Shown here: piece after piece, positions 15,476 to 63,744 of the stretch | Layout of the letters: each line of letters starts with the position of its first letter | Position numbering within the stretch: the first letter of the stretch is position 1 | Source of the DNA: a phage | NCBI GenBank assembly: GCA_011911785.1 | Contig: GCA_011911785.1_4084.1 | Reading direction: 5' to 3' (one strand) | Length of the DNA: 64,000 nucleotides | Program-made: the position numbers and the translations under genes | The notes under the pieces: model-generated | What the model was told of the DNA's origin: nothing | Databases searched by the model: none | What the model saw: only the letters and a program-made list of their open reading frames with translations

Positions 15476-15511
15476 ATACTTTCCTTTATAAATTGTATTG
15501 TAGTGTTATAT

Positions 15512-15519
15512 TATTTATA
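15512..15519 (-). promoter_or_regulatory. T4-type late promoter element (TATAAATA on minus strand)
   Basis: Plus-strand tatttata at 15512..15519, about 40 nt upstream of the minus-strand gene start at 15475. Confidence 0.35.
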
Positions 15520-15543
15520 TTATACCAAAAGTATTTTAGGATT

Positions 15544-15566
15544 AAAAAAAGGAGTCCGAAGACTCC
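15544..15566 (-). terminator. rho-independent terminator (minus strand)
   Basis: Hairpin ggagtc-cgaa-gactcc; on the minus strand it is followed by a 7-nt U-tract; lies just downstream of gene 15580..17283. Confidence 0.55.
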
Positions 15567-15579
15567 TTAAAATATAAAG

Positions 15580-17283
15580 TTATTGGAAACGAGCATACGG
15601 TGGAAATCTGGTTTGGTCAGGTTCATCTTGTTGGATTACACCGAATACAACAGGAACAGCAATAAATTTCTCATCTGGACAAATAACTTCAATTAATTGA
15701 CCACGCATTTTTACAAAATTATCAGTCATTATTGGAATTGTATAGTCGTATACACAGTCAACTGGTGTATAATTAACTGTAACATAACGTCTTTCATTAG
15801 GCGACATATCTGAAACTTTTGCAGGGTCTAACGAAATACCAGTCATTGGAGTACTAGTACAATTAATTATTAGTACATCTGAGTTAAAGTTTGCTGCTGA
15901 TGTAGGTGGACATACATACGACACAGTGACTGGAGAATATGGTTTAGTTGTACCAAAAAACTTCAATGTTAAATCTGTATTAGATGAACCATTGTGTTTT
16001 GCCACATCCGATGATGATTGCCAATGACCATCAGGAAGATATGAATATTCTGGAATTAACACATAATCAAATTTTACATTATTTTTGTTATACGATGATG
16101 TTGAAATATCCCCTTGTACTTTAATAGTATGTTTTTGGTCTGGGAATTTCAATCCAGTTGCTTTTGGTAATATACCAGATGCACGAACAGTGTTAGAAGA
16201 TACTTTTCCATCCAGAGATACCGCAGTAACCATGATTGAAGGTTGTGTTGGATTGTATGATGGTCCATCCCCAACTGGCTTAGTTTTAAAATATGCTCTT
16301 TCTGGAGTACTTTTATCTGCTAGATATACTAGATTCGGTGCATCATTGAACTTACAACCGTGGAATGTATTATCTGGAACATATGAGATATCAACATAAA
16401 ATTCATCACCAAAATTTAAAGTTCCAGGAACTGGATTTGATAGATTTATTATTTGAACTGATGGATAAGTTGTGTGGCATGTAAATGAAGCAGATGAACT
16501 ACCATCACTTGTGTGCCATGTAGAAACGACAGGAGTACTGGATTCTTCAATTACTGTAAAATGTGCACGGTATGGAGTACTGTCTGTTTCAAGACTCAAT
16601 ACATCTTTTGGGAAATCCCAATAACCACTTTCATTACCTAAGTATGGGTCATATAATATATCCACATAAAAATCAGTACCTTTTGGAGAAGACACTATTG
16701 ATGGATTAATTTTAACTTTAACATCAGGTTTGATAATATTACAGGTAACACCATCATAATCACCACCAACGTTACACACTAGTGTTTTAGGTTCACTATC
16801 TTTAGGTAAGACTAACGCTTTGAAATGAGCACGAGTGTCAGTACTGTCATTAATTTTCTCAAAATAAGTTGTATCAAATACCCAAGATGGATATCCTTTA
16901 TTCTTATCATATTCAACATCAATAAAGAAGTCATCCCCGACAATTACAGTAACATTCTTAGGTGTTAACTTAATTGGAACTGGTGCATCAGGATCAACAA
17001 CTGTAACATTACAAATTAGAGTTTGTGTTTTATCATAGGTTGGTACATATGAAACTGGAAATTTACCCGCTTTAATTGCAGTAAGGATTATCAGTGTTGG
17101 TGTTTCAGTGGTTGCAATTAAGCTTTTTTTATCATAATTCCAGTCCCCGACTTTCTGGTTATCAGGTGTATCAGAACTGAAATCTGCGAAAATTTGTTTA
17201 GTGTCACCAATTTTCATTTCCAAATGGGATGGATTTAATGTAACTGAAAACAAATTCTCTATATTTTTTACTTTCTTAGACAT
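15580..17283 (-). CDS. Ig-like repeat protein (second repeat class)
   Basis: 567 aa; several ~90-aa repeats with consensus GDxFxIDIxYxPDxAxHxGxW.YD...STxxRAHFKxxK and a conserved Cys. Confidence 0.5.
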   Translation of the reverse strand: MSKKVKNIENLFSVTLNPSHLEMKIGDTKQIFADFSSDTPDNQKVGDWNYDKKSLIATTETPTLIILTAIKAGKFPVSYVPTYDKTQTLICNVTVVDPDAPVPIKLTPKNVTVIVGDDFFIDVEYDKNKGYPSWVFDTTYFEKINDSTDTRAHFKALVLPKDSEPKTLVCNVGGDYDGVTCNIIKPDVKVKINPSIVSSPKGTDFYVDILYDPYLGNESGYWDFPKDVLSLETDSTPYRAHFTVIEESSTPVVSTWHTSDGSSSASFTCHTTYPSVQIINLSNPVPGTLNFGDEFYVDISYVPDNTFHGCKFNDAPNLVYLADKSTPERAYFKTKPVGDGPSYNPTQPSIMVTAVSLDGKVSSNTVRASGILPKATGLKFPDQKHTIKVQGDISTSSYNKNNVKFDYVLIPEYSYLPDGHWQSSSDVAKHNGSSNTDLTLKFFGTTKPYSPVTVSYVCPPTSAANFNSDVLIINCTSTPMTGISLDPAKVSDMSPNERRYVTVNYTPVDCVYDYTIPIMTDNFVKMRGQLIEVICPDEKFIAVPVVFGVIQQDEPDQTRFPPYARFQ

Positions 17284-17295
17284 AATAGTTTTACC

Positions 17296-19185
17296 TCATC
17301 TATTATTGATTGTTAATATACAAGCATCTACTTTTGAATTTAACGTAATATACGTAATAGGTGTAGTAGTATCACCTGTAGATTTTAATGTTCTGAACTT
17401 TGCCTTATTAATTATACTACCATCATCTAGTCTCTCAACTAATGTATCATCGAACACCCATCTCCCTGCTGGATTTGCATCACTAGGTGTAAATGTTGCA
17501 ATAACATTAAACTCTTGATACAAATCTTTTGTTAGAGATTTTGGTGTTACAGCTACTGCTGTTGGTGACGGTTGTGCTTTAATAAGACAATATGCATCTG
17601 CACTTTTACCCTCCGAATTGTAAGTTATTTGTTGAAATTGATCTGATTCTTTTAGTGCTGTAAAATATCCAACGTCAGAGGTACTAATATCTTCTTTTTG
17701 GATGTAATTAGAATCATATGTCCAAGTTCCGCTATGGGCAGCAGTATCTGGTATATAATCTATGTTTATTGCAAATGTGGATGAAACAGTTACTGCTTGT
17801 GTTTGTGGTGAAAGTTTAATACTATCCAAGGGTTTATAGGGTGATATTCTACATATATTAGAATCATTTACGGATGCAGATGTATTTGATATAAATGTAA
17901 TAGTCATAGGGTCTGTATTATATTTCAATACTGTAAAAACACCACAATCATCAGTACTGGAATCGCTTAATTCAAATGTTTCTTTATCATATATCCATAT
18001 ACCACCATGAATGGAATAATCCGGTGTATAATTTACATTAATTTTAAAAGTATCACCTACATATACAGATTCAGTTTTCGGACTTAATGAAACACTACTT
18101 GGTGGTGTACTTGAATCGATTTTACATGTATTATACCCAATTCTATTAAGGGTTGAATATGATATTTGTAATGGTGTTGGAGTTTCATCTAAAACGAAGA
18201 ATCTTACATATTGACCAGCATTTGATTTATCTACCATACGAAGCTTTGTTGCATCATATAGCCATGTACCTAATGGATATGTACCAGGTGGATCGTATTC
18301 AACATTTATTGTGAAGTAGTCACCTTTTTTAACTTCTTCGGTTCCTGGTGAAAGTGTAATAGATTTAAGTTTTTGAATGTGGCATTTATTTTTAGCAGAT
18401 ACATTTCCAGAAACAAAGTAAGTTAAATCTATTCCTTCTGGTGGTGTTTCTTCTATTGCTTTAAAATGTGCTCTTACTGTTGAGTCAGTATCATTAATCA
18501 AAGATACTTTTGTTTGGTCATAGTTCCATATACCATTCTTTTCAGCATTACTTGGAACATATGTTATGTCAATATAAAAATCTTCATCTTCCGATACTAT
18601 TTCACTACTTGGGGATAGTATAACTTCTGACGCTTCTGTACTGGAAATATGACATTGGTTAGTGTCCTTAATATCATTGTATGAAAAAGATATTAATGTA
18701 GTTTGTTGTTCTGATGATATTACTTCAAATGTACCAACATCCATATCATCATTAATTAGTTTAAGCACTGCATGATCATATGTCCATTCACCAACATGTG
18801 GTGCATCATTTGGTGTGTAAGTCACATTTACATCAAATGTATCACCAAATGAAACAACTTCATTCTTAGGAGATAGCGTGATTTTTTCAAGTGGTGTTGT
18901 ATTAATATTCACATAGCAAACCCCTGATAGTAATGGATTTGTGTCTGGAATATAAGTTATTTTTGTTGATCCTTGTTTGAGTGCAGTGAATGAAAATGTA
19001 GTCGATGTAATATCAGGTGAATCACTACTAATAAATTCTGAATCATAAACCCACTTTCCTTTTTTATATGGATAGTTGACTGGATTGAAAACAACTTCTA
19101 ATACATCAGATTCTTGTATATCTATGTTTTCATACCTAGGTATAATTCTAACACTTATTAAAGTGTCGCTATTTTGATTAGTCAT
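17296..19185 (-). CDS. Ig-like repeat protein (second repeat class)
   Basis: 629 aa; about 7 repeats of the same ~90-aa unit. Confidence 0.5.
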   Translation of the reverse strand: MTNQNSDTLISVRIIPRYENIDIQESDVLEVVFNPVNYPYKKGKWVYDSEFISSDSPDITSTTFSFTALKQGSTKITYIPDTNPLLSGVCYVNINTTPLEKITLSPKNEVVSFGDTFDVNVTYTPNDAPHVGEWTYDHAVLKLINDDMDVGTFEVISSEQQTTLISFSYNDIKDTNQCHISSTEASEVILSPSSEIVSEDEDFYIDITYVPSNAEKNGIWNYDQTKVSLINDTDSTVRAHFKAIEETPPEGIDLTYFVSGNVSAKNKCHIQKLKSITLSPGTEEVKKGDYFTINVEYDPPGTYPLGTWLYDATKLRMVDKSNAGQYVRFFVLDETPTPLQISYSTLNRIGYNTCKIDSSTPPSSVSLSPKTESVYVGDTFKINVNYTPDYSIHGGIWIYDKETFELSDSSTDDCGVFTVLKYNTDPMTITFISNTSASVNDSNICRISPYKPLDSIKLSPQTQAVTVSSTFAINIDYIPDTAAHSGTWTYDSNYIQKEDISTSDVGYFTALKESDQFQQITYNSEGKSADAYCLIKAQPSPTAVAVTPKSLTKDLYQEFNVIATFTPSDANPAGRWVFDDTLVERLDDGSIINKAKFRTLKSTGDTTTPITYITLNSKVDACILTINNR

Positions 19186-19205
19186 ATAATAACCTCCGGT
19201 ATAAA

Positions 19206-19231
19206 AGATGCCACCGAAATGGCATCTTTTT
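19206..19231. terminator. terminator-like hairpin
   Basis: agatgcca-ccgaaa-tggcatct followed by ttttt on the plus strand; lies between two minus-strand genes, so orientation and function are uncertain. Confidence 0.35.
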
Positions 19232-19243
19232 GTTTATTTGTAA

Positions 19244-21742
19244 TTAACGAATTATGAAACAGGTGGCATATGCTTCAGGTGGGGTTTGGTCAGGATTAAT
19301 TGGAGTACTGACAAATCTCATAGAGGTTGGACCTGTTGGAGCATTATCTTTAACTTTAAAGTGTGCAACATCCATAGTACTATCCTGTTGATATTCCAAT
19401 ATAGTTTCATCGACATACCATGTACCTTTATGTTGTGCACTTTCTGGTTCATATATAACTGTAACATAGAAATCACTTCCACTTGATGTTGGAATGCGGG
19501 ATGGTGTTATAGATACACTATCGGTGTTTGAAAATTCAATTGTACATGTATGCACTGCTTTATTTTTCCCATCACCATAATCATAAGTGATATCAGTATC
19601 CCCTGCCTCAACATTTTTTAAGACATAGAAACCAACTTCATCATGAGGGTAATCACTTGGCAAAAATGCAATCTTATCCATATCATAAGTCCATGTACCT
19701 TTATGTTTAGCATCGTCAGGATCGTAACTAACAACTATATTAATTGCGTCACCTGGTTTCAAGGTAGACTTCGGTGGAATTAATGAGATTGATTCAACGT
19801 CAGGATATTTCACTATACATTTATAATTCACTGGGTCAACACCATCTGGCTGGAATGAAAGAATTACACCATCTTCAGTTGTTGGTTTTAATGCTCTAAA
19901 CACAGTAACATCAGGAGTACATTTTTCTTTAACAAACTCAACGATGTCCGCTGGGTAGTTCCATTGTAGACGACCAGTATGTTGTGCAGTTAGAGGCATG
20001 TAGGTCATATTGATGGTAAATTCTTCACCAACTTCATGTGCACCATTATCGGGGGATATAGCAACACTGTCCAAATATGAATACCCAACTGTAATGTTAA
20101 ATGCAACAGCATTTTCCTCTTTCACACTTTCAGGAATAAAATAGACATTTGTTGATTTTGATGTTGATTTAGAACTCTTAACATACCCAACATCAGCAGT
20201 TGTTCCGGTCCCCATTGCTGCAACATCTTCATCTTCTATTTTCCATGTACCTGCATGTTTTGCTGTTTCTGGATTATAATTCACCTTAACAATACTGATA
20301 TCATCATACGAAATTACATCACTAGGTGGTGTATAGGAATACGATATCAAATCAGAATAATCTATTTTACAAGGATAAGAATACTTAGAATATCCAGAAT
20401 CGAAAGTTAGATTAATTGTATCATTTGGTAATCCTGCGGCAAATGTGGATTTAAGGGAAGAGAATGTATATAGATCATCTTGTGGTGCACCTGAAAGTTT
20501 CACATATTGTTCAACATCTTGTATATCCCAAATACCACTATGTCTAGCAGTGTCTGGATTATATTTCACTTTAACATTGAATACATCTAGTGCTTTGATT
20601 TCTTTTGATGGGGGATCAAATTCTATTGAAATTAAATCCGAATAGTCAGGAACTATATTGATTGCGTTTGATTGAACCCCACCAGATGATTGGAAATATA
20701 TTGGTAATGCTGAATCGAACGGTTTGATAGTACTGAAATATCCACGGGTATCAGTTGATTTAGCAGATTCAAATTTGAAATGCTCTTCATCAAAAACCCA
20801 TTTACCAGTTTTGTTTGCAGACGCTGGTTCGAATACCATATCAATGAAAAAGCCATTTGGTACTTTGACGATCTTATCATCGGATTGTGCTGTAATTGAT
20901 TTAACTGGTGAATAAGTTACAGTAACGTTACATTCAGCTTTTGCTTTATCATTACAAATATAGCTAATAGTACTGGCAGTTTGTGGTGGTGTACTTTTAA
21001 GTGCAATGAAGGTTGCACCATCTAAGCCACTTTTTGTTTCATTAAGACTGAAGACTTCCTCATCATATTTCCAAATTCCCATTTTATCCGCAGTTGTTGG
21101 ATCATATGTTAATGCTAGATAGAATGATTCACCAACTTCACAACTTACTGTTTGTGGGTCAATTGTAACTGAATTGATTGGGTTATTAGTTAAGAAGTAA
21201 TTACATTCTGCACTTACTGAACCTACTGATGCAGTTATTTTACCATTACAAGGGTCGGTTGATATAACATTAAACAATCCAGATTTTCTAGAACTAAGCA
21301 TTGGCACTAACGCAATTTGTGTGTTATCATAATCCCATACTGGTACGTCTATACCATTATCGGGTGAATATTCCACTTCAATGGTGAATTTATTAGGACT
21401 AAGCCCCGATGTCATTAAACTTGGGGTGAGTTTCATTGAACTCACTGATTGGTTTAATACTGTAATTGTACAAGTCGCTGATGATGATTTATTATCATCT
21501 GGTGTAAATGTAATGGTTGCTGTTCCTGTTTTTAGAGCAGTATAATCACATTGTAAACCACTTCTATATCCTATTTTAACAACGTCAGGATTATCACAAT
21601 CCCATTGACCTGCTTTATGTGTCCATGATTGTGGTTCATAGACTACGTTTAATTCAGATGTATCGTTAACATAGACCACTGAAGACCTACCTTCCTTAAA
21701 ATGAACGGAACGCAATGTTTCGAATTGATTTGTATTTTTCAT
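19244..21742 (-). CDS. Ig-like repeat protein (second repeat class)
   Basis: 832 aa; about 9 repeats of the same unit. Confidence 0.5.
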   Translation of the reverse strand: MKNTNQFETLRSVHFKEGRSSVVYVNDTSELNVVYEPQSWTHKAGQWDCDNPDVVKIGYRSGLQCDYTALKTGTATITFTPDDNKSSSATCTITVLNQSVSSMKLTPSLMTSGLSPNKFTIEVEYSPDNGIDVPVWDYDNTQIALVPMLSSRKSGLFNVISTDPCNGKITASVGSVSAECNYFLTNNPINSVTIDPQTVSCEVGESFYLALTYDPTTADKMGIWKYDEEVFSLNETKSGLDGATFIALKSTPPQTASTISYICNDKAKAECNVTVTYSPVKSITAQSDDKIVKVPNGFFIDMVFEPASANKTGKWVFDEEHFKFESAKSTDTRGYFSTIKPFDSALPIYFQSSGGVQSNAINIVPDYSDLISIEFDPPSKEIKALDVFNVKVKYNPDTARHSGIWDIQDVEQYVKLSGAPQDDLYTFSSLKSTFAAGLPNDTINLTFDSGYSKYSYPCKIDYSDLISYSYTPPSDVISYDDISIVKVNYNPETAKHAGTWKIEDEDVAAMGTGTTADVGYVKSSKSTSKSTNVYFIPESVKEENAVAFNITVGYSYLDSVAISPDNGAHEVGEEFTINMTYMPLTAQHTGRLQWNYPADIVEFVKEKCTPDVTVFRALKPTTEDGVILSFQPDGVDPVNYKCIVKYPDVESISLIPPKSTLKPGDAINIVVSYDPDDAKHKGTWTYDMDKIAFLPSDYPHDEVGFYVLKNVEAGDTDITYDYGDGKNKAVHTCTIEFSNTDSVSITPSRIPTSSGSDFYVTVIYEPESAQHKGTWYVDETILEYQQDSTMDVAHFKVKDNAPTGPTSMRFVSTPINPDQTPPEAYATCFIIR

Positions 21743-21832
21743 TATATAATCTCCTATAAATGAATTTGTATTATGGGGAACTTATAATTAAGCTCCCCGT
21801 CGAACGAGTTTATATTATACACCTCCGATATT

Positions 21833-24800
21833 TTAAAAATCTGCTGTTATGGTTATTGTCTTGGTAATCCCAGCCTCTTTAACTTCATACGTAAGCGTAA
21901 TTGGATTCTCTGGCTTCTTGATTAGATAAAAATGAACTATCGTTTTCATTGGAGGCCAGTTCACTGAAAGATACGTCTCGTCATAAGTTAATGTACCAGT
22001 ATATAACGCATCGTCAGGATGGTTTGTAAGGAATGCAACATACATTTTACCTAATGCTGTGATGTTTACATGATCAGACTTTGTGGTCTTTTCAATAAAA
22101 TCAACTGATACCAAAGGTGACGCAGTTGATACAATATGAACAGAATTAGTTGAATATGCATCATGACCTGTACCTTGGGTGTACTTAAATTTTACATCAA
22201 TCCCTTCTGGTGGAGTTTCTAATATTGTCATTAAGTTATGAGAATCACTAAAAACCTTATAATCATATGGAGGAAGTGCAACAACTGATTCATGTAATCT
22301 ACCATCACCTATTGCATCAGGTGGATTTACGGTCATAACTACATAGTTTCCATATGAGTTTGCTTTTGTTGTAAACGAATCTGGTGTTATGGTGAATGAT
22401 TCAACATATGGTCTTAGTGGAGTTATCTGTGCTGTTGCAGGAGCGTAACCAGGAATTGTATAAACTAAATCAAACGGAGCACCAAGCACTTCAGCAGTTT
22501 TATCCACTGGTATTTCATCCTCGTCAAAATAATCTATACCGTAAACTGGTTGTTGATAATAACTATCACCAACAGATGGATCGTAAGCTGTAACTTTAAA
22601 ATATGCTTCAGTCAATGTACTCTTAGCTGGGATATATTCGCAGTAGTTTAATGCCTCACCACTAAATGTACCAGCAAGTGGTATAACATTAGATGGTTTG
22701 AAAACAATATTAACTTTAAATTCCATACCTTTGTGGTAATCATTTTTACCAGGCAAACCAAGACTTATTGATTGTATAATATCATGAACAACCGTACATT
22801 TGTTTGTTGCAGTTTTACCCGAACTTGTATAAATCAATGAAATTGGATTTGGATCTGATTTCAATGCTTTAAAATGTGCACGGTCAGGGGTACTGTCTGA
22901 AAGTAATTCAAAATACCCAACTGCAACTGACCCATCAGATAAACTATAAGACCAAGAACCTTTATGATCTGCTGTATCAGGTGTATATGTGATATCAATA
23001 TAGAAATCATCACCAGCATCCAACTCTTCTGTAGCTGGAGATAATGAAATAGATTCCAATACACTATAATCAACATAACATATAGTTTTATTCGAAACAA
23101 TGTTACCACAAATAAACTGCAATTCTAACTCATCAACCGTTTTAATAGCTTTAAAGTGTGCACGGTCTGGTGTACTATCACTCTCAAGTGTTAAGTACTG
23201 GTCAAATCCAGATGTATTCCACGTACCAGTATGTTCAGCACTATCTGGTGTATATGTAATATCAATATAGAAATCATCACCAGTCTTCACTTCTATAGTA
23301 CTTGGCGAAATAGTAATTGCAGACAATGCACTATGTTGTATTGTACAAGTAGATGAACTAGATTTACCAGAACTGGTATATGTCAGTGTTATTGGTGAAC
23401 TGCTATATTTTTTAACTTGGAAGTGTGCTTTATCTGGAGTACTATCACTTTCAAGAGATAAGTATTCTTCAAAATCACTGGTATTCCATGTACCAATATG
23501 CTGTGCAGTATCAGGTGTATATGTGATATCAATATAGAAATCATCGCCAATAGCTGGAGTTACCGATTCAGGGGACAATTTAACATCAGTTAATTGTGAA
23601 TAAGGTATAACTGTTACATCAGCACTTTTCTTTGCACTAGTAAATGTTAACTTTTTAGAATCAGGTAGCTGTTTGATTACATCAAAATAAGCTTCACTTT
23701 CAGTACTTCTAGAGGTTAGATATGAGAAATAATCAGTTTCATAACTCCATTTACCAGATTTCAAAGCGGTATCCGGCACATAAGTTATAGTAACATCAAA
23801 CGTATCACCATCATTAACATTAATACTAGGTGGATTTACTGATACAGATTCTAACTTGTCATAAAGAATAGAGCATGTATTTTCTGTGGTTACACCAGCA
23901 CTAGAGAATGATATTTGTTGTGTACTTTCGGTTGATGGTGGCTTTGCAATAACTTCAAATACCCCAACATCGGCGGTGCTTTTTGATGTATCTAACTTAA
24001 GATATGTTTCATCATACGCCCAATCACCTTTATGTTCAGCAGTGCTTGGTTCGTATGTTATAGCAATATCAATAATATCACCAACTGATACGGTTTCATT
24101 ATCAGGTGATAATGTCAATTTAACCAACTTGTCATATTTCGCAGTACATGTATTTTCAGCATATTTTCCATTAGTACTGGTATATTTCAATACAGTTGGT
24201 GTATCTGAACGTTTGAGTACTTGGAATTGCTGCTGTTCATAATTAATTGGTTCAATCAATTTAATCATATCAGTATCATATTCCCATGTACCAATATGCT
24301 GAGCACTATCTGGTGTATAGGATATGTCTATTGTGAATGTATCACCATTCAAAACAGTTTCAGAATCAGGAGTTAAATCCACTGATGTTAATAAATCATA
24401 ACGTGCATCACATGTATTAGTTTTAGTGATTCCTGCACTAGTAAAAGATATTACCAATGGTGTATCAGATTTTTTCAGCACTTTAAATTGTGGTTTATCG
24501 TAATCATCTGGGTTCAATAACTCCAAATGGTCTTTATCATAATCCCATGTACCAATGTGTTGTGCTGTATCAGGTGTATATGTAATATCAATTACAAATG
24601 TTTCACCCAATGGGACAATTTCACTAGCTGGTGTTATTGAGAAATCGGTTAATTTATCATACTTAGCATCGCAAATACTATTACCCTTAACACTACCTTG
24701 TTCAAATGTTATTGTTAATGGAGTATCAGACTTTTTGATTACTGTAAAATTACCTTTCTCGTACTCAACACTTTGAGCCGCATTATATTGTAAGTACTCT

Positions 24801-27478
24801 TTGTCATAAACCCATTCACCAATGTGTTGAGCCGTATCAGGTTCATATTTCACTTCAATATCAAAAGATTCACCCAACGGAACAGTTTCATTTGCAGGTG
24901 ATAAAGTAATCCCAGTAAGTGCATCATAACTTGCAACACATGTGTTTGTTGCGGAGTGTCCAGTTGACTTATATGTTAATGTTAATGGAGTATCTGATTT
25001 CTTAATAACCTTAAATATCCCTTTTTCATATTCTCCATTATTAAGATGTTCCAAATATTCATGGTCGAATAACCAAACACCAAAATGATATGCAGTATCA
25101 GGTTCATATTTTATATCAATAGTGAATGTTGAACCTAATGGGGCAATTTCGGATGTAGGAGAAAGTGAAATCCCAGTTAATACATCATGTGATGAATCAA
25201 CGTTAACATATGCTGGATATGCATTACCATTTTGGTAGCTCATACTAACATTTGGTGATTTCTCAATAATTTTAAAGTGAGCACGTTCAGGTGTACTGTC
25301 ATCTAAATGAGTCAAATAATATTGATTGTAATACCACGCACCAGCATGTTCTGCATTATCAGGTTCATATGTTAAATCAATATAGAAATCAGTTCCGACT
25401 GGTGCAATAATTTTAGAAGGATTTGCTGTTATTATAGTTGGTGTTACAAAAGGAACACTACCATAAATGGTATTACTTGTAATGGAACCAGACTTATAGG
25501 TAAATGCAAGTTTATCTTGTGTATCTTTAATAGCTAAGAATCTTGCATAATTTGGTGCTTCTGGGTCCATTCCTTGATACTCAAAATGTTCTTTGTCATA
25601 TTCCCATGTACCAGTGTGTTCTGCTTCATCAGGTGTATAAGTTAGTTCAATATATGCAAGTTCACCAACAGTTAATATTTGGAATCGTATAGGGTCATAA
25701 GCAGCAATTGTAAGTGATTCCAAATCTTTATAATCAACTTTACACTCATTAGTTGCAGTAACTTTACCTTCTGAGTACACTAAATCAATTTTATCAATAT
25801 GTTTTAATGCTTTAAAGTGTGCTTTATCAGCAGTTGACTTAGTACTATCAAATGTGATATATTCTTTAAACGTATCAGTATTCCATGCACCTTCGTGTTT
25901 AGCGGTGTCTGGTACATAAGATATCTCAATATCAAATTCATCACCAATCTTCACAGTTTCTGATGTAGGATTCAGTACTAGTGAAGTTAAATCAGAATAT
26001 AGGACATTGAAGCTAACTGTTTTAGCATCACCACCACCATCTGGGGTAAATGTTGCAGTTGTGGTTCCTTGCTTCTTGGCTACGTAGTACATTACATCAT
26101 CGGTACTTTTAGTTGTATCTTCTTCAACGATCCCAACTGGTTCAAATGTCCAAGTACCACCTTTTTGTGCATTGTTTGGTGTATAAGTAATGTCAATTTT
26201 ACCAGTACTTTCTGGTTTGATATTGGATACAGTACTAGGTGTTAACACTACACTTTTCAAATCAGCATACTCAACCGTGAAGTTGACTTCTGGTAAATCT
26301 TTAGTATAATCTGCACTTGGTGTAAATGTAGCTTTTGTACTACCATGTTCAAGTAGCTGGTAATCAAATTTAGTATCTGTATGCGAAATACTTTTTACTA
26401 TATTAGTATCATCAATTGACCATGTTCCACCTTGTTTGGCGTTATCAGGGGTATAGATTATTTCAATCGTGCCAGATGAACCCGCTTTGTCATCTACAGA
26501 GGCAGGTTTGAGTTCTACATTGTCCAACGCAGCATAAGTTATGTCAATTGTTGCAGCCGCAGTTTTAGTTTTATCTTCATTTAATGTGAAGAGTACACTG
26601 GTGGTTGGGTGAACATTTTCTTTGACAGCTATTGCTTTAAACGTTATACTATTTTCGTCTTCACTTACAACTTCAAGAACATTTGTGTTGTATCCACTCC
26701 ATACACCACCACGTTTAGCTGGGGCATAATCGACTGGATCATAAACAACAGATACAGTAAATGTATCATTAAGTTTTACATCAATTGGGTTTGGGTTGAG
26801 AGAAACACTAAAGAGGACGTTAGGATCATCATGTAAATGACCGAACGCGGTTGATTTTAAATGAGGTTTGTTTGTGGGAGTGAATGATATTTCTACTGGA
26901 ATATCACCATCAATGACTCCTGCTTGGAGGATAATACTATTTTTATCACTATGTACTTCAGTTAAATGTTCAGTTGGGTATGTCCATGTACCAGATTGGT
27001 CAGGCCAATCTTTCGGAGAGAAGTAAGCAGTGAATTGCATTTTATCATTTGAATAAAGAACAAAATCATCTGGCTTTATTATAACTTTAGACAACGAATT
27101 TGGCTCCACGTTCGTTCTTCTGAAAATTATTTCACCATTATGTAATTTTATTTTATTACTTTGATATTGAATACCAAAACCATACTTATTATTAATAGCA
27201 TCAGCTTCTTTTATGCAAAATGTATTATTTGCTAAAGATTTAGCAATTTCAGCATCGTCATCATCATACAACAATGTTGATTTATCTTTATTTCTACCTG
27301 TGATTTTTATATCTTTGTAAATCTTGAAATTTTCAGATATTAAATCATATGAATCGAATGTTCTTTGTTTTATAACATACAATTCTTTAACAAATACTTG
27401 CCCTTCTATCTTTGCAGCAGTAACCTGCAATCCACCTATAACAAATGGAAATTGATCTAAGCCAGCTATTGGTTTCAT
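21833..27478 (-). CDS. giant Ig-like repeat protein with shared N-terminal module
   Basis: 1881 aa; N-terminus paralogous to 13049..15475 and 12617..13030, then about 18 repeats of the ~90-aa unit. Confidence 0.55.
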   Translation of the reverse strand: MKPIAGLDQFPFVIGGLQVTAAKIEGQVFVKELYVIKQRTFDSYDLISENFKIYKDIKITGRNKDKSTLLYDDDDAEIAKSLANNTFCIKEADAINNKYGFGIQYQSNKIKLHNGEIIFRRTNVEPNSLSKVIIKPDDFVLYSNDKMQFTAYFSPKDWPDQSGTWTYPTEHLTEVHSDKNSIILQAGVIDGDIPVEISFTPTNKPHLKSTAFGHLHDDPNVLFSVSLNPNPIDVKLNDTFTVSVVYDPVDYAPAKRGGVWSGYNTNVLEVVSEDENSITFKAIAVKENVHPTTSVLFTLNEDKTKTAAATIDITYAALDNVELKPASVDDKAGSSGTIEIIYTPDNAKQGGTWSIDDTNIVKSISHTDTKFDYQLLEHGSTKATFTPSADYTKDLPEVNFTVEYADLKSVVLTPSTVSNIKPESTGKIDITYTPNNAQKGGTWTFEPVGIVEEDTTKSTDDVMYYVAKKQGTTTATFTPDGGGDAKTVSFNVLYSDLTSLVLNPTSETVKIGDEFDIEISYVPDTAKHEGAWNTDTFKEYITFDSTKSTADKAHFKALKHIDKIDLVYSEGKVTATNECKVDYKDLESLTIAAYDPIRFQILTVGELAYIELTYTPDEAEHTGTWEYDKEHFEYQGMDPEAPNYARFLAIKDTQDKLAFTYKSGSITSNTIYGSVPFVTPTIITANPSKIIAPVGTDFYIDLTYEPDNAEHAGAWYYNQYYLTHLDDSTPERAHFKIIEKSPNVSMSYQNGNAYPAYVNVDSSHDVLTGISLSPTSEIAPLGSTFTIDIKYEPDTAYHFGVWLFDHEYLEHLNNGEYEKGIFKVIKKSDTPLTLTYKSTGHSATNTCVASYDALTGITLSPANETVPLGESFDIEVKYEPDTAQHIGEWVYDKEYLQYNAAQSVEYEKGNFTVIKKSDTPLTITFEQGSVKGNSICDAKYDKLTDFSITPASEIVPLGETFVIDITYTPDTAQHIGTWDYDKDHLELLNPDDYDKPQFKVLKKSDTPLVISFTSAGITKTNTCDARYDLLTSVDLTPDSETVLNGDTFTIDISYTPDSAQHIGTWEYDTDMIKLIEPINYEQQQFQVLKRSDTPTVLKYTSTNGKYAENTCTAKYDKLVKLTLSPDNETVSVGDIIDIAITYEPSTAEHKGDWAYDETYLKLDTSKSTADVGVFEVIAKPPSTESTQQISFSSAGVTTENTCSILYDKLESVSVNPPSINVNDGDTFDVTITYVPDTALKSGKWSYETDYFSYLTSRSTESEAYFDVIKQLPDSKKLTFTSAKKSADVTVIPYSQLTDVKLSPESVTPAIGDDFYIDITYTPDTAQHIGTWNTSDFEEYLSLESDSTPDKAHFQVKKYSSSPITLTYTSSGKSSSSTCTIQHSALSAITISPSTIEVKTGDDFYIDITYTPDSAEHTGTWNTSGFDQYLTLESDSTPDRAHFKAIKTVDELELQFICGNIVSNKTICYVDYSVLESISLSPATEELDAGDDFYIDITYTPDTADHKGSWSYSLSDGSVAVGYFELLSDSTPDRAHFKALKSDPNPISLIYTSSGKTATNKCTVVHDIIQSISLGLPGKNDYHKGMEFKVNIVFKPSNVIPLAGTFSGEALNYCEYIPAKSTLTEAYFKVTAYDPSVGDSYYQQPVYGIDYFDEDEIPVDKTAEVLGAPFDLVYTIPGYAPATAQITPLRPYVESFTITPDSFTTKANSYGNYVVMTVNPPDAIGDGRLHESVVALPPYDYKVFSDSHNLMTILETPPEGIDVKFKYTQGTGHDAYSTNSVHIVSTASPLVSVDFIEKTTKSDHVNITALGKMYVAFLTNHPDDALYTGTLTYDETYLSVNWPPMKTIVHFYLIKKPENPITLTYEVKEAGITKTITITADF

Positions 27479-56804: not shown

Positions 56805-57266
56805 ATGACTCCCTGGAGAGATTTTATGGAAAATATTAACGACTTGCGACATGTTATGGACTTCATTGGCTGTACTGAAGAAGACAGTGCTTATGATGAA
56901 GTACTATTGACATTTATTGAAAACAGCATTATACTACCAGCAATTGCACATAGCTGGCATTTACAAAGTAAACACTACACAAAACATCTACAATTAGATG
57001 AGTTGTATAAAGAGTTACCAGAATATGTCGATGCGTTCATTGAAGGCATTATGAACACTCGTGGTGCTTTACAAATTGGTACTGGACACAGTTATAAGTT
57101 CACACCAATTGAACAGTGTATTCCTATTCTTGAAGAATACTGTGAACAATGTAAGTACGTTCATGCTATGCTTGAAGAAGCTGAAGACTATGGCAGTACT
57201 AATACCCTTGAAGATATAATGAGTTTCATTGAGGGTACTTTATATAAACTTAAGTATCTTGAATAA
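56805..57266 (+). CDS. hypothetical protein
   Basis: 153-aa ORF. Confidence 0.4.
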   Translation: MTPWRDFMENINDLRHVMDFIGCTEEDSAYDEVLLTFIENSIILPAIAHSWHLQSKHYTKHLQLDELYKELPEYVDAFIEGIMNTRGALQIGTGHSYKFTPIEQCIPILEEYCEQCKYVHAMLEEAEDYGSTNTLEDIMSFIEGTLYKLKYLE

Positions 57267-59917: not shown

Positions 59918-60508
59918 TTGGTTATGGGTAAACTTATTTTCTTTAGTGGGAGTATGTCATCAGGAAAGAGTACACATCTTTTACAGAACGCATATAACCA
60001 CAAGAAGAACGGGATGAAAGTCATCTACTTAACGAGTGCATTAGATGATCGTTATGGTACTGGTAAAATAACATCGAGAATCGGTATAGAATCTGAAGCT
60101 CAAGTTATTCCAAAAGATGACCTAAGCGTTATTCATGACGTAATAAAACTATTACAGGTTGACAATGATTATAATAGTATCTACGTTGATGAATGTCAGT
60201 TTTTAAATCGAAAACAAATTGATTTATTAGCCGATATTGCTGATGAGCATATGGTTGATGTATATTGTTATGGTATTAAAACCGATTTTGAATCAAATAC
60301 ATTTGAAGGTTCTCAAAGGCTATTTGAAATAGCAGATGAGATCCATGAATTAAAGAACGTATGTGAAAATCAAAAGTGCGGAAGAAATGCTATAATGAAT
60401 GCTCGCATCGTAGATAGTACTGATAAAGTGTTTATTGGTGGTGATGAATCATATAAGAGCCTGTGTAGAAAATGTTATAAAAACTATATGAGGAATAAAA
60501 ATGGTTGA
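59918..60508 (+). CDS. tk: thymidine kinase
   Basis: P-loop GSMSSGKST, DECQFL, C-terminal zinc ligands (CENQKCG ... CRKCY); collinear with my recollection of T4 Tk. Confidence 0.9.
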   Translation: MVMGKLIFFSGSMSSGKSTHLLQNAYNHKKNGMKVIYLTSALDDRYGTGKITSRIGIESEAQVIPKDDLSVIHDVIKLLQVDNDYNSIYVDECQFLNRKQIDLLADIADEHMVDVYCYGIKTDFESNTFEGSQRLFEIADEIHELKNVCENQKCGRNAIMNARIVDSTDKVFIGGDESYKSLCRKCYKNYMRNKNG

Positions 60509-60734
60509 TAAACTACTTAAAAATATTGCAGTACGCTTGTTGGATGGTTTTGTTGATACAGTGAAACTACTATTCAGTACTGCAATGAGCATTTTAGTAA
60601 TATTGATGTTCGCATTAGTATTACATTTCGTACCAGTATGGATTGTAATTACTGCAATTGTCGTTCTACTTATCATCATCTCGTATTTCACATATCGTGA
60701 AGAATTGCAAGAGTTGCTTGATAAAGATGACTAA
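60501..60734 (+). CDS. small membrane protein
   Basis: 77-aa ORF with two hydrophobic helices. Confidence 0.4.
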   Translation: MVDKLLKNIAVRLLDGFVDTVKLLFSTAMSILVILMFALVLHFVPVWIVITAIVVLLIIISYFTYREELQELLDKDD

Positions 60735-60743
60735 AACTTTATA

Positions 60744-60769
60744 TTCCTCACTATGTGGGGAATATTTTT
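60744..60769 (+). terminator. rho-independent terminator
   Basis: Hairpin ttcctcac-tat-gtggggaa followed by tattttt; same 15-nt core as the terminator at 9682. Confidence 0.55.
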
Positions 60770-60780
60770 AAGGTAATATT

Positions 60781-61242
60781 ATGATTAATCGTGAAATATT
60801 GCAATGCTTGTATCGTTTGGTTGATGTTTGTAAAGATACTAATCTATTGAAAATGGATTTTTATGAACACAAAGCTAATATATTAGCTGAAATTCTTGGA
60901 TATACAAATCCTCAATTCCGATACTATGACGGTGCGATGTTTAGTGCATTTGATGGTGATTATTCAGTCCAATGCGTAGCACAAGAGTTATTTTATGTGT
61001 GGGATGACACAACGAATTGTCAGGTTATGATCGAAGTTAGATATCCAGATGGGAGTAATACACCAATGGGTGAATATAATAGATTAGATACATTTTATGC
61101 ATTACAACCATCCACACCTACACCTGTTCCATATCCTAATATTGAATCTGAAATTATCCATTATGAGATGATTCAGAAATGTAAATCACTCTCAACTTAT
61201 GATGAGATATATTTTCCATTAGTTTTTATAGGATCTAAATGA
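60781..61242 (+). CDS. hypothetical protein
   Basis: 153-aa ORF. Confidence 0.4.
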   Translation: MINREILQCLYRLVDVCKDTNLLKMDFYEHKANILAEILGYTNPQFRYYDGAMFSAFDGDYSVQCVAQELFYVWDDTTNCQVMIEVRYPDGSNTPMGEYNRLDTFYALQPSTPTPVPYPNIESEIIHYEMIQKCKSLSTYDEIYFPLVFIGSK

Positions 61243-61625
61243 TGAGATGGAAAAAGAGACATACTAAACGATTTACTGAGATCGTCAAAAAGTATTATAA
61301 TTCTAAAGATAGTTTTGCATCTATGTTGTATGAAAGTATTACACCTAGACGTTATCCACAATGCTATGTTAATGTAAGAAACAAAAGTAAGAACCGATAT
61401 ACAGTAGAGTTATATGGGGAAGGTACTACATTTCTTGGGACTCGTATTTCAGTACCTTCTTACCTGTACTCAAGAGTTAAACGCAGTCGTGTTCAGGGTG
61501 TACTAGTCGGATATCAAATGTTGTCCATTGATGAAGTTAATGATAAGCTCACACGAAACTTTTCTTACACAGATTTCGAAATTCATGATATAATCTTAGA
61601 TATCTTATCAGATTTGGGGAATTGA
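61239..61625 (+). CDS. hypothetical protein
   Basis: 128-aa ORF. Confidence 0.4.
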   Translation: MMRWKKRHTKRFTEIVKKYYNSKDSFASMLYESITPRRYPQCYVNVRNKSKNRYTVELYGEGTTFLGTRISVPSYLYSRVKRSRVQGVLVGYQMLSIDEVNDKLTRNFSYTDFEIHDIILDILSDLGN

Positions 61626-61674
61626 CCGTGGTATACGTAGAAGTCTTTATGTTTGATGTTAAAAAAGGAAAAAA

Positions 61675-61809
61675 ATGATGAAAGGATTAAAGAAATTTGG
61701 ATCGGATTTTGTTAAGTGTATTCGCTACACTTATGATGCAAATCCAGAAATGACCGCCATTGTCGGTGTGTTTATTACATTAGTTGTGTTAAGCTTTGTA
61801 GTGGTGTAA
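61675..61809 (+). CDS. small membrane protein (44 aa)
   Basis: Below track threshold; aaggaaaaaa RBS, C-terminal TM helix; ends 4 nt before the next gene. Confidence 0.3.
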   Translation: MMKGLKKFGSDFVKCIRYTYDANPEMTAIVGVFITLVVLSFVVV

Positions 61810-61812
61810 AAT

Positions 61813-62223
61813 ATGATTGAAATGGAAGGAACTCTGGTGTATGATCCAGACCGTGGCACTATGAAAAAGAAGAAGGACTTCTGGTTAGTACTGCAACTTC
61901 CATTACAGTTGGTTAGATACTACCAGTACTTCATCAGAACTGATCTCCACATTGATGTTAAAGACCCACAATGGGGAGCACACGTCAGTATTGTTCGTGG
62001 TGAAGTGCCACCAAATCCAGAGTACTGGAAAAAGTACGATGGTCAAAAAATTAAAATAAAATTCAATCCTGATATTGTTCAAGTGAAAGATAAAAAGAAA
62101 CCAGGCTCGTTCTTTATCATAGAGTTCGATGATGAATTCATTGGACACATTCGCAATGAACTAGGATTACAATCAAAGTACTTACGTTATCACCTCACAG
62201 TAGGGAGAACGTACTACGACTAA
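61813..62223 (+). CDS. 2H-phosphoesterase-like protein (candidate Acb1-like or LigT-like)
   Basis: Two H-x-S/T-x motifs (HVSIV and HLTVG) about 70 residues apart in a 136-aa protein. Confidence 0.45.
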   Translation: MIEMEGTLVYDPDRGTMKKKKDFWLVLQLPLQLVRYYQYFIRTDLHIDVKDPQWGAHVSIVRGEVPPNPEYWKKYDGQKIKIKFNPDIVQVKDKKKPGSFFIIEFDDEFIGHIRNELGLQSKYLRYHLTVGRTYYD

Positions 62224-63411: not shown

Positions 63412-63744
63412 ATGCTAAATCTAGTTATTCAAGGTAATGTTGATATTACTCCAGCAATCCATGACGCAATTCATCAAGAAGCAAACACTCTAAATAAATT
63501 TAGTGATTCTTCAGTACTGAATATTGGTGTTCATGTGAAAAAAGAGCATAAGACACAGTACGCAGTAACTTTAACATCAGGTGGTAAGTCTGTTACTGCC
63601 GATGATGCAGATTTATACAAGGCGATTGTCGATTCATTCGAAAAAATGGAAACTGTATTCAGTAAAGACAAAAGCATTAAATTGCACCGCCGAAACCATC
63701 CAGACCGTCCAGTTGTAGTTGATGTAACTGACGAAGAAGAGTAA
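63412..63744 (+). CDS. hpf: ribosome hibernation / translation inhibitor factor (HPF/RaiA family)
   Basis: VDITPAIHDAI ... TLTSGGKSVTADDADLYKAIVDSFEKME and acidic C-terminus match my recollection of E. coli RaiA/HPF (ITPAI, HEDMYTAI). Confidence 0.8.
   Translation: MLNLVIQGNVDITPAIHDAIHQEANTLNKFSDSSVLNIGVHVKKEHKTQYAVTLTSGGKSVTADDADLYKAIVDSFEKMETVFSKDKSIKLHRRNHPDRPVVVDVTDEEE

What the first reader, a model, noticed from the sequence alone, without database searches (positions are those of the whole stretch)
61813..62223. 2H-phosphoesterase-like protein: possible Acb1-type cyclic-nucleotide degrading anti-defence enzyme or RNA-repair enzyme
A 136-aa protein with two H-x-S/T-x motifs (HVSIV, HLTVG) at a spacing typical of the 2H superfamily. 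In T4-like phages a 2H-fold enzyme (Acb1) degrades CBASS cyclic oligonucleotide signals; LigT-like RNA 2',3'-cyclic phosphodiesterases share the same motifs. It lies in the tk-to-lysozyme region.
Basis: partly seen in the sequence, partly recalled or inferred. Interest (0 to 1): 0.6.

Follow-up and report, generated by a model that had tools for sequence, protein, structure and literature searches.

The report
Small 2H phosphoesterase in jumbo phage
The 136-residue gene really does encode a two-histidine (2H) phosphoesterase, but it belongs to a large, basic, tRNA-gene-associated phage family (Pfam 2H-SAK) rather than to the Acb1 anti-CBASS family, so it most likely tidies damaged RNA or tRNA ends, and nobody has yet tested what it does.

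Summary

The "Acb1-type" reading is not supported as membership:
- Homologues hit Pfam PF22547 (2H-SAK), never the Acb1 family PF23474.
- Profile-profile similarity to Acb1 is 35% over half a domain.
- The protein ends 9 residues after the second His, so it lacks Acb1's C-terminal lid, W147 and E141.
- The family is basic (median pI 9.3) whereas Acb1 is acidic (5.8).

Context points to RNA. The neighbours include a CCA-adding enzyme with no detectable HD domain, a PTH2-like gene, an RNA ligase and a YqeY protein, and one relative is a 2H-YqeY fusion. Distant relatives are embedded in tRNA arrays. As a control, true Acb1 genes also lie near tRNA arrays, but they lack these protein neighbours.

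Best reading: a metal-independent RNA/tRNA 2',3'-cyclic phosphodiesterase (confidence about 0.45). Cleavage of cyclic oligonucleotides remains possible (about 0.25). It is a new member of a known kind, and homologues were already annotated computationally.

The parts
61813..62223 (+). ORF of 136 aa plus stop codon: a standalone minimal 2H phosphoesterase (identical to A4_527; PHROG 12204; Pfam 2H-SAK at family level)
61981..61995 (+). Motif 1, H57-V-S59-I-V, within the conserved 'W-G-A-H-V-S-I-V-R-G-E'. Predicted catalytic His and phosphate-binding Ser on strand beta3.
   Evidence: H57 100%, S/T59 100%, R62 79%, G63 94% in 126 homologues; strand E56-62
62191..62205 (+). Motif 2, H127-L-T129-V-G, followed by R132. 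Predicted second catalytic His and Thr on the last strand. The protein ends 9 residues after H127.
   Evidence: H127 100%, T129 97%, G131 87%; strand E126-132; short C-terminal tails across the family
61843..61881 (+). Residues 11-23 (DPDRGTMKKKKDF): a Lys-rich, lower-confidence loop between beta1 and beta2 with conserved P12, R14 and K18. It is a candidate substrate-binding or lid-like element (inference).
   Evidence: pLDDT 73 for the residue 11-20 block; P12 94%, R14 58%, K18 65%
61806..61823 (+). Junction where the window lacks the 211-bp segment (gene A4_526) present in GenBank A4. The junction is a 17-18 bp direct repeat covering the RBS and start codon of the 2H gene.
63412..63744 (+). 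Context gene: HPF/RaiA ribosome hibernation factor homologue, two genes downstream. It is the first of a translation-related run that continues beyond the window (CCA-adding enzyme, Nudix, macro, PTH2-like).
59918..60508 (+). Context gene: thymidine kinase. GAP32-type relatives have an RNA ligase between tk and the 2H gene; here there are only small ORFs.

Best explanation
The gene encodes a metal-independent 2H phosphoesterase that acts on RNA ends. Most likely it opens 2',3'-cyclic phosphate termini on tRNA (or other translation RNAs) left by metal-independent host RNases or by processing. It would work alongside the phage's own tRNA-maintenance genes: the CCA-adding enzyme, a PTH2-like hydrolase, tRNAs, and in relatives an RNA ligase and a YqeY tRNA-binding protein.

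Proposed mechanism: H57 and H127 sit on two antiparallel strands facing one cleft and act as general acid and base. S59 and T129 hold the phosphate. Conserved aromatic residues (Y10, W24, W72, Y/F84) and basic residues (K18, R62, K74, R114, R132) bind the terminal nucleotide and the RNA backbone. The resulting phosphomonoester end is then dephosphorylated and either extended by the CCA-adding enzyme or sealed by a ligase.

Shown here: the ORF, the conservation, the fold, the family assignment, the gene context and the charge. Inferred: catalysis, the substrate and the partners.

For: 2. Family. 26 of 27 close homologues hit Pfam PF22547, '2H-SAK', the 2H domain of Swiss-Army-Knife RNA-repair proteins, and several are above the 27-bit gathering score (28-38 bits).

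3. Context in A4 and 121Q. Within 7 kb downstream lie HPF, a CCA-adding enzyme, Nudix, macro and a PTH2-like gene. The CCA-adding enzyme shows no HD phosphoesterase domain, so a cyclic phosphodiesterase supplied in trans is plausible.

4. Context across 69 loci. PTH2 is present in 18-19, CCA-adding enzyme in 18, RNA ligase in 16 and a YqeY-like protein in 13. At least one of these four occurs in 23 of 69 loci (about 7 independent lineages), against 1 of 79 Acb1 loci.

5. Fusion. One family member, P0042, is a 2H-YqeY fusion. YqeY/GatB domains bind tRNA (established knowledge).

6. tRNA arrays. Of 52 divergent loci, 38 have tRNAs within 8 kb, 23 have one within 500 bp and 16 have them on both sides. 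360 of 362 tRNAs are on the same strand as the 2H gene.

7. Charge. Median pI is 9.3 and net charge +5.5, against 5.8 and -4 for Acb1.

8. Literature. The Aravind group predicted on comparative grounds that jumbo-phage 2H enzymes resolve 2',3'-cyclic phosphates for tRNA repair (PMC7824862; PMC9503650). A close relative, UE-S1, is reported to carry 8 tRNAs and an RNA ligase.
Against: - No biochemical data exist for any member of this family.
- Proximity to tRNA arrays is not specific. True Acb1 genes also have tRNAs within 8 kb in 56 of 79 loci, and T4 57B lies 1.4 kb from the T4 tRNA cluster.
- In this window there are no tRNA genes and no RNA ligase. Asteriusviruses appear to lack the GAP32-type ligase that neighbours the gene in relatives.
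- Much of the neighbour signal comes from one syntenic enterobacterial jumbo-phage group (17 of the 23 loci).
- The window protein itself falls below Pfam's reporting threshold.
- Doherty et al. found that most tested structural groups of viral 2H enzymes cleave some cyclic nucleotide in vitro.
Confidence: 0.45

Rival explanations
1. It is an Acb1-like anti-defence enzyme. It would hydrolyse cyclic oligonucleotide immune signals (CBASS cGAMP or cAAG, type III CRISPR cA3/cA4/cA6) through the same 2H chemistry, with the N-terminal strand and Lys-rich loop (residues 11-23) serving as the lid in place of Acb1's C-terminal lid.
For: - Size and His spacing are similar (70 against 69 residues).
- Phage G gp116, which is in the same PHROG 12204, was annotated as Acb1 by HHpred in PMC12484599.
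- Lids can sit at the N-terminus in PDE-9, and the enzyme core rather than the lid sets specificity.
- Five of the seven tested structural groups of viral 2H enzymes cleaved some cyclic nucleotide.
- Acb1 genes also sit beside tRNA arrays, and the T4 order tk-e-tRNA-57B-gene 1 loosely mirrors the A4 order, so the two could be positional homologues.
Against: - No PF23474 hit for the window protein or its 26 close homologues, and no hit with an Acb1 HMM built here against any protein called in the 69 related loci (which include the divergent members) or against the window's six-frame ORFs.
- hhalign gives 35% probability over a half-domain only.
- The protein ends 9 residues after H127, so it has no counterpart of the invariant E141, of W147 or of lid residues 145-152.
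- The family is basic whereas Acb1 is acidic.
- Foldseek does not list Acb1 among its top 50 PDB hits.
- The neighbours and the fusion point to tRNA metabolism, which is not seen around Acb1.
- Two structural groups of viral 2H enzymes were inactive on all 18 messengers tested.
Confidence: 0.25
2. It is an ADP-ribose 1'',2''-cyclic phosphate (Appr>p) phosphodiesterase. It would work in an NAD+-dependent branch of RNA repair or ADP-ribose detoxification, passing Appr-1''-p to the nearby macro-domain phosphatase and ADP-ribose to the Nudix hydrolase.
For: - Macro and NudE-type Nudix genes lie 4-6 kb downstream in A4 and 121Q.
- A macro gene lies within 3-7 kb in 16-17 of 69 loci, including Bacillus phage G, and about 5 kb away in Atu_ph07.
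- NAD+ salvage genes (NAMPT, NMNAT-Nudix) recur near divergent members.
- 2H enzymes are the known Appr>p phosphodiesterases (PMC9503650).
Against: - Macro domains are very common in phages (2,333 records).
- In RsoM2USA the macro gene is about 54 kb from the 2H gene.
- The macro linkage is largely confined to one syntenic group plus phage G and Atu_ph07.
- No KptA/Tpt1 that would generate Appr>p was identified here, although it was not searched for genome-wide.
- A strongly basic surface is not needed for a small anionic metabolite.
Confidence: 0.12
3. It is a Usb1-like 3'-to-5' exoribonuclease or trimming enzyme. It would process the 3' trailers of phage tRNA precursors and leave cyclic or 3'-phosphate ends.
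For: - The gene is tightly embedded in co-oriented tRNA arrays in distant relatives, often starting 31-90 bp after a tRNA.
Against: - The structural matches are weak (TM about 0.4) and no better than those to other 2H enzymes.
- A4 has no tRNA genes within this 64-kb window.
- Bacterial hosts already supply 3' trimming nucleases (established knowledge).
- No direct evidence supports this role.
Confidence: 0.05

Closest known systems
Pfam PF22547 '2H-SAK' (2H phosphoesterase domain of Swiss-Army-Knife RNA-repair proteins; Burroughs & Aravind 2016, cited from Pfam and from my own knowledge because the paper was not readable here)
   Same: It is the only Pfam family hit by the homologues: 26 of 27 match, and the best score 28-38 bits against a 27-bit cut-off. 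In both, the domain ends a few residues after the second HxT motif (profile positions up to 122 of 124). Both carry a predicted RNA-end-healing role.
   Different: The window protein itself scores below Pfam's reporting threshold. The N-terminal roughly 50 residues (beta1, the Lys-rich loop, beta2 and alpha1) are not covered by the Pfam model. These proteins are standalone 130-170 aa phage proteins rather than parts of multidomain SAK proteins.
Acb1 (T4 gp57B, Erwinia phage FBB1; Pfam PF23474; PDB 7T26/7T27)
   Different: They are in different Pfam families. Only half-domain profile similarity is detected. This family has no C-terminal strand, lid, W147 or E141 and instead has an extra N-terminal strand and loop. 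It is basic where Acb1 is acidic. Its neighbours relate to tRNA metabolism, which Acb1's do not.
LigT/ThpR RNA 2',3'-cyclic phosphodiesterase and the Trl1 CPD domain
   Different: There are no hits to LigT-type Pfam families even at E<=10. This protein is about 40 residues shorter and lacks the C-terminal strands that follow motif 2 in LigT. Sequence profiles do not reach any solved 2H structure.
Usb1 (U6 snRNA 3'-end phosphodiesterase)
   Different: Usb1 is eukaryotic, much larger (185-215 aa) and shares about 10-12% identity. The matches are weak (TM about 0.4).

Membership tests
2H phosphoesterase superfamily | Two H-x-S/T-x motifs, each on a beta strand and flanked by hydrophobic residues | tested here: met
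   HVSIV (residues 57-61) and HLTVG (127-131) lie on predicted strands E56-62 and E126-132. Both His are 100% conserved, S/T59 is 100% and T129 is 97% in 126 homologues.
2H phosphoesterase superfamily | Two-lobed alpha+beta fold with internal pseudo-twofold symmetry | tested here: met
2H phosphoesterase superfamily | Metal-independent phosphodiesterase activity that depends on the two histidines | not testable with these tools
   Requires an enzyme assay with H57A and H127A mutants.
Pfam PF22547 2H-SAK | Score at or above the 27-bit gathering threshold | tested here: inconclusive
   The window protein has no reported hit. Close homologues score 20-27 bits and more distant ones 28-38 bits. 26 of 27 match at E<=10, best 3.9e-10.
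Pfam PF22547 2H-SAK | Domain ends just after the second HxT motif | tested here: met
   Matches run to profile positions 118-123 of 124 at the protein C-terminus. Most family members end 6-10 residues after the second His.
Acb1 (PF23474; Hobbs et al. 2022) | Sequence membership, by Pfam PF23474 or an Acb1 profile | tested here: not met
   All but one of 68 Acb1 homologues carry PF23474; the exception is a 99-aa fragment. None of the 27 homologues of the window protein does. An Acb1 HMM finds nothing in the window or in 69 related loci. hhalign gives 35% probability over 35 columns.
Acb1 (PF23474; Hobbs et al. 2022) | C-terminal lid (residues 145-152, W147) and adenine-reading E141 | tested here: not met
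   These features are defined in PMC9117128. E141 is invariant in the Acb1 alignment. The window protein ends at residue 136, 9 residues after H127.
Acb1 (PF23474; Hobbs et al. 2022) | HxT/HxT catalytic tetrad | tested here: met
   HVS and HLT are present. This feature is shared by all 2H enzymes, so it does not discriminate.
Acb1 (PF23474; Hobbs et al. 2022) | Cleaves 3'3'-cGAMP and cyclic trinucleotides and protects the phage from CBASS | not testable with these tools
   Requires biochemistry and plaque assays.
LigT/ThpR-type RNA 2',3'-cyclic phosphodiesterase | Sequence membership in the LigT-type Pfam families | tested here: not met
   No such family is hit at E<=10 by any of the 27 members. 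NCBIfam gives no hit. Profiles do not reach LigT chains in the PDB.
LigT/ThpR-type RNA 2',3'-cyclic phosphodiesterase | Hydrolyses RNA 2',3'-cyclic phosphate to a phosphomonoester | not testable with these tools

The most novel reading that the evidence does not exclude
This protein would represent a very large, uncharacterised family (at least 909 clusters at 50% identity) of minimal, basic 2H enzymes that phages carry inside or beside their tRNA gene arrays. The family would define a dedicated phage step for healing or maturing tRNA 3' ends. It would supply the cyclic phosphodiesterase activity that the phage CCA-adding enzymes, which lack an HD domain, do not have, and so counter host tRNA-cleaving defences. 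Acb1 would then be a specialised offshoot of this older tRNA-linked 2H lineage that was re-targeted to immune signalling nucleotides.
Probability: 0.3. Interest if true: 0.6.

Novelty: new member of a known kind. Interest (0 to 1): 0.4.

Why it matters
Phage 2H enzymes are now being annotated wholesale as "Acb1/anti-CBASS" from fold similarity. Phage G gp116, which is in this same family, is an example. This case shows that such a label can be premature. The family differs from Acb1 in family assignment, termini, charge and gene neighbourhood, and it looks more like part of the phage's tRNA maintenance toolkit.

If the RNA-end-healing role is correct, the family marks a widespread counter-measure against tRNA-cleaving host defences in jumbo phages. 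It would also give a simple, testable candidate for the cyclic-phosphate-opening step that the phage CCA-adding enzymes lacking an HD domain cannot perform. If instead it cleaves cyclic oligonucleotides, it would be a new structural class of anti-signalling enzyme with an N-terminal rather than a C-terminal lid. Either result would sharpen the rules for predicting the substrates of viral 2H enzymes.

Tried and rejected
- **Direct family and structure searches with the window protein.** Pfam, NCBIfam and a PDB sequence search all gave nothing. Only family-level searches were informative.
- **PDB sequence searches with profiles A1 and A2.** Only chance hits were returned.
- **hhalign of the family profile against single T4 Acb1.** Uninformative, at 2% probability. 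It was repeated with an Acb1 profile.
- **Macro-domain linkage as the main clue.** It was weakened because macro domains occur in 2,333 phage records and lie about 54 kb from the 2H gene in RsoM2USA.
- **Idea that self-cleaving ribozymes in tRNA arrays create the cyclic-phosphate substrate.** An Rfam gathering-threshold scan of 9 tRNA-rich loci gave 160 matches. The 150 listed were all tRNAs and no ribozyme was seen. The idea is unsupported, though novel ribozymes would be missed.
- **tRNA-array proximity as proof of a tRNA function.** It was downgraded after the control showed that Acb1 genes are also near tRNA arrays.
- **Promoter and terminator scan around the gene.** Counts were at the level of shuffled sequence.
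- **Tools and sources that were unavailable.** The search for related loci with the broad alignment A2 failed because no stretch was conserved enough, so A1 was used. The afdb50 fold library was unavailable. The Burroughs & Aravind 2016 paper was not held. The supplements of the Doherty preprint do not mention these phages.
- **Whole-genome survey of 121Q for RNA ligase, PNK and KptA.** It was started and then abandoned as too costly. Published statements on the relatives UE-S1 and Sharanji were used instead.

Full report
**What is there.** Window 61813-62223 (+) is a clean ATG-to-TAA ORF of 136 aa. The window is 99.9% identical to Escherichia phage A4 (ON286972), a 355-kb jumbo phage of the genus Asteriusvirus. 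The ORF is 100% identical to A4_527, which is annotated as a hypothetical protein. The two motifs are HVSIV (residues 57-61) and HLTVG (residues 127-131).

**Is it more than chance?** Two HxS/T matches among four histidines are not remarkable on their own. Three further results make them real.
- In 27 close homologues both histidines are invariant.
- An exhaustive profile search found 909 cluster representatives (E<=1e-3; 340 at E<=1e-10). Nearly all are standalone proteins of 130-170 aa. Both motifs are kept in essentially all of the 150 best, spaced 64-80 residues apart.
- In a 126-sequence alignment H57, S/T59 and H127 are 100% conserved and T129 is 97%. G6, Y10, P12, W24, Y36, Y37, G63, W72, Y/F84, R114, G118, L119 and G131 are at least 80% conserved.

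**Which 2H family?** The window protein itself hits nothing in Pfam. It belongs to PHROG 12204, of unknown function. However, 26 of its 27 homologues hit a single Pfam family, PF22547 "2H-SAK" (the Swiss Army Knife RNA-repair 2H domain), and several exceed the 27-bit gathering score (28-38 bits). UniRef already names the Yersinia phage homologue accordingly.

Acb1 has its own Pfam family, PF23474, which all but one of 68 T4 Acb1 homologues hit; the exception is a 99-aa fragment. None of the homologues of the window protein hits it, and an Acb1 HMM built here finds nothing in the window or in 69 related loci. Profile-profile comparison of an 80-sequence alignment of this family with a 19-sequence Acb1 alignment gives 35% probability over 35 columns. 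It pairs lobe 2 of this family with lobe 1 of Acb1, which reflects only the generic 2H internal repeat.

Hobbs et al. define Acb1 by the HxT/HxT tetrad, by stacking residues Y12, W74, F107 and W147, by E141, and by a C-terminal lid at residues 145-152. E141 is invariant in my Acb1 alignment. The window protein ends 9 residues after H127, as do most of its relatives, so it has no counterpart of E141, W147 or the lid. Instead it has an extra N-terminal strand and a Lys-rich loop (residues 11-23, lower pLDDT).

Foldseek against the PDB ranks Usb1 and LigT first, weakly (E 0.035-0.9, TM about 0.4), and Acb1 is not in its top 50. Against viral models the weak matches are a mixture of a "SAK 2H" protein, an Acb1 and LigT-like proteins. 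Structure therefore establishes the superfamily but not the subfamily. Sequence profiles reach no solved structure at all.

**Physico-chemical contrast.** This family is basic: median pI 9.28, net charge +5.5, and 79% of members have pI above 8. Acb1 proteins are acidic: median pI 5.82, net charge -4, and none is above pI 8. A basic surface fits a polyanionic RNA better than a dinucleotide. This is only a crude indicator.

**Gene context.** In A4 and 121Q the gene is followed within 7 kb by these genes:
- an HPF/RaiA ribosome factor (63412-63744 in the window);
- a CCA-adding enzyme;
- a NudE-type Nudix hydrolase and a glutaredoxin;
- a macro-domain protein;
- a weak PTH2-like protein.

The CCA-adding enzyme (370 aa) shows only the polymerase head and RNA-binding domains. 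No HD domain is detected. E. coli Cca carries its cyclic phosphodiesterase and phosphatase activity in an HD domain (established knowledge).

I fetched 66 loci from IMG/VR plus phage G, Atu_ph07 and a Vibrio phage, and clustered the proteins within +-8 kb. The most recurrent neighbour families were as follows.

| Neighbour family | Loci |
|---|---|
| PTH2 peptidyl-tRNA hydrolase | 18-19 |
| CCA-adding enzyme | 18 |
| RNA ligase with PHA02142 OB domain (about 3.5 kb upstream) | 16 |
| YqeY-like protein | 13 |
| Macro domain | 16-17 |
| NMNAT-Nudix | 5-8 |
| NAMPT | 4 |
| Cpn10 | 15-18 |

One family member, P0042, is a 2H-YqeY fusion. YqeY/GatB domains are tRNA-binding modules (established knowledge).

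In the 52 loci whose 2H protein is less than 50% identical to the query, 38 have tRNA genes within 8 kb, 23 have one within 500 bp and 16 have them on both sides. Of 362 tRNAs, 360 are co-oriented with the 2H gene, and the ORF often starts 31-90 bp after a tRNA.

**Controls and caveats.** T4's genuine Acb1 lies 1.4 kb from the T4 tRNA cluster, so I fetched 79 Acb1 loci as a control.

| Measure | This family | Acb1 |
|---|---|---|
| tRNA within 8 kb | 38 of 52 | 56 of 79 (14 of 36 divergent) |
| tRNA within 500 bp | 23 of 52 | 4 of 79 |
| tRNAs on both sides | 16 of 52 | 1 of 79 |
| At least one of PTH2, YqeY, CCA, RNA ligase within 8 kb | 23 of 69 | 1 of 79 |

The tRNA figures come, and the neighbour figures. 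tRNA proximity is therefore shared by the two families and is only tighter for this one. It cannot on its own exclude an Acb1-like role. It may mean that the two families are positional relatives, or that tRNA regions collect accessory genes.

The tRNA-metabolism neighbours do discriminate. However, 17 of the 23 loci belong to one syntenic enterobacterial jumbo-phage group, so the number of independent lineages is about seven. The window itself contains no tRNA genes and no RNA ligase. Asteriusviruses seem to lack the GAP32-type ligase, although the close relative UE-S1 is reported to encode 8 tRNAs and an RNA ligase, and Sharanji 7 tRNAs.

**Literature.**
- The Aravind group had already noted 2H phosphoesterases in group 2.2 and group 3 jumbo phages. 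They predicted that these resolve 2',3'-cyclic phosphates for tRNA repair or process ADPr>P (PMC7824862; PMC9503650).
- A 2025 paper on phage G annotated gp116, which is in the same PHROG 12204, as "Acb1" from an HHpred match, with no experiment (PMC12484599).
- Doherty et al. (bioRxiv 10.1101/2025.08.21.671373) showed that viral 2H enzymes fall into structural groups with very different substrate ranges. Two groups were inactive on all 18 messengers tested. Lids can be N- or C-terminal. Fold alone therefore does not predict function.
- I found no experimental work on this family.

**Most likely mechanism.** The protein is a metal-independent 2H phosphoesterase whose two histidines act as general acid and base across a cleft formed by strands 56-62 and 126-132. 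It opens 2',3'-cyclic phosphate ends on tRNA or other RNAs. This prepares them for dephosphorylation and then for CCA re-addition or ligation by the phage's own enzymes. My confidence is about 0.45.

The rivals are:
- Acb1-like hydrolysis of cyclic oligonucleotide signals, using the N-terminal loop as the lid (about 0.25);
- an Appr>p phosphodiesterase feeding the macro and Nudix enzymes (about 0.12);
- Usb1-like 3' trimming of tRNA precursors (about 0.05).

These are not mutually exclusive, because 2H enzymes are often promiscuous towards cyclic phosphates.

**Verdict.** The gene and the fold assignment are real. The Acb1 label is not justified as membership, and the RNA-repair reading is better supported but unproven. 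Homologues are already in Pfam and PHROGs and have been discussed in the literature, so this is a new member of a known kind, of moderate interest. The broader pattern of a very large, basic, tRNA-array-linked 2H family distinct from Acb1 is the part worth testing.

Noticed in passing
window 61806-61823 (compare L001 5790-6000): The window lacks a 211-bp segment that is present in the GenBank A4 record. The segment is exactly the 67-aa gene A4_526 (conserved as 121Q gp530), which lies immediately upstream of the 2H gene. Its borders are a 17-18 bp direct repeat, (G)TAAAATATGATTGAAAT, formed by the RBS and first codons shared by both genes. This looks like a repeat-mediated deletion or a natural or assembly variant.
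   Followed up: partly
window 63412-63744: This ORF is an HPF/RaiA ribosome hibernation factor homologue (Pfam Ribosomal_S30AE, E 3.8e-10). In the A4 record it is annotated as 'putative sigma factor / sigma 54'.
   Followed up: partly
L073 3087-4199 (A4_536, about 4.6 kb beyond the 2H gene and outside the window): The phage CCA-adding enzyme (370 aa) has only the PolyA_pol head and RNA-binding domains, and no HD domain is detected. The record nevertheless calls it a multifunctional 2',3'-cyclic phosphodiesterase/nucleotidase/phosphatase. The Vibrio phage homologue (L005) shows the same domain content.
   Followed up: partly
protein P0042 (335 aa, metagenomic): This is a natural fusion of the 2H domain (residues 5-154) to a YqeY/GatB-type domain (residues 219-334, E 4e-17). 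Standalone YqeY-like genes lie 0.8-6 kb from the 2H gene in 13 loci, including Atu_ph07 and GAP32-type phages.
   Followed up: partly
loci L075-L153; T4 locus L006: Genuine Acb1 genes are themselves frequently next to co-oriented tRNA arrays: 56 of 79 loci have tRNAs within 8 kb. In divergent Acb1 loci the array starts 224-4084 bp downstream. To my knowledge this association has not been remarked on. It could indicate shared ancestry with the family studied here.
   Followed up: partly
loci L037, L044, L046, L072, L028, L027: These uncultivated phage contigs carry very dense, co-oriented tRNA arrays, with 16-30 tRNAs in 16 kb. Small protein genes, including the 2H gene, are interleaved only tens of bases from the tRNAs.
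   Followed up: partly
L017 4796-6061 and equivalent positions in L008-L023: GAP32-, CBB- and BF-type relatives carry a 421-aa RNA ligase (PHA02142 OB domain plus RNA_ligase) between tk and the 2H gene. Asteriusviruses have small unannotated ORFs at that position instead (window 60501-61809).
   Followed up: partly
window 56805-57266: This ORF matches DUF5856 (E 5e-27). All the other ORFs scanned between 56.3 and 61.6 kb have no Pfam match.
   Followed up: no
window 13049-27478, minus strand: A block of very large minus-strand ORFs (808, 567, 629, 832 and 1881 aa) interrupts the otherwise plus-strand gene order. They were not examined.
   Followed up: no
L073 6359-6736 (A4_543); L002 about 26724-27101: A 125-aa protein downstream of the macro gene clusters with the PTH2 peptidyl-tRNA hydrolase family seen in distant loci. 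On its own it scores below Pfam's cut-off (20.6 bits against 23).
   Followed up: partly
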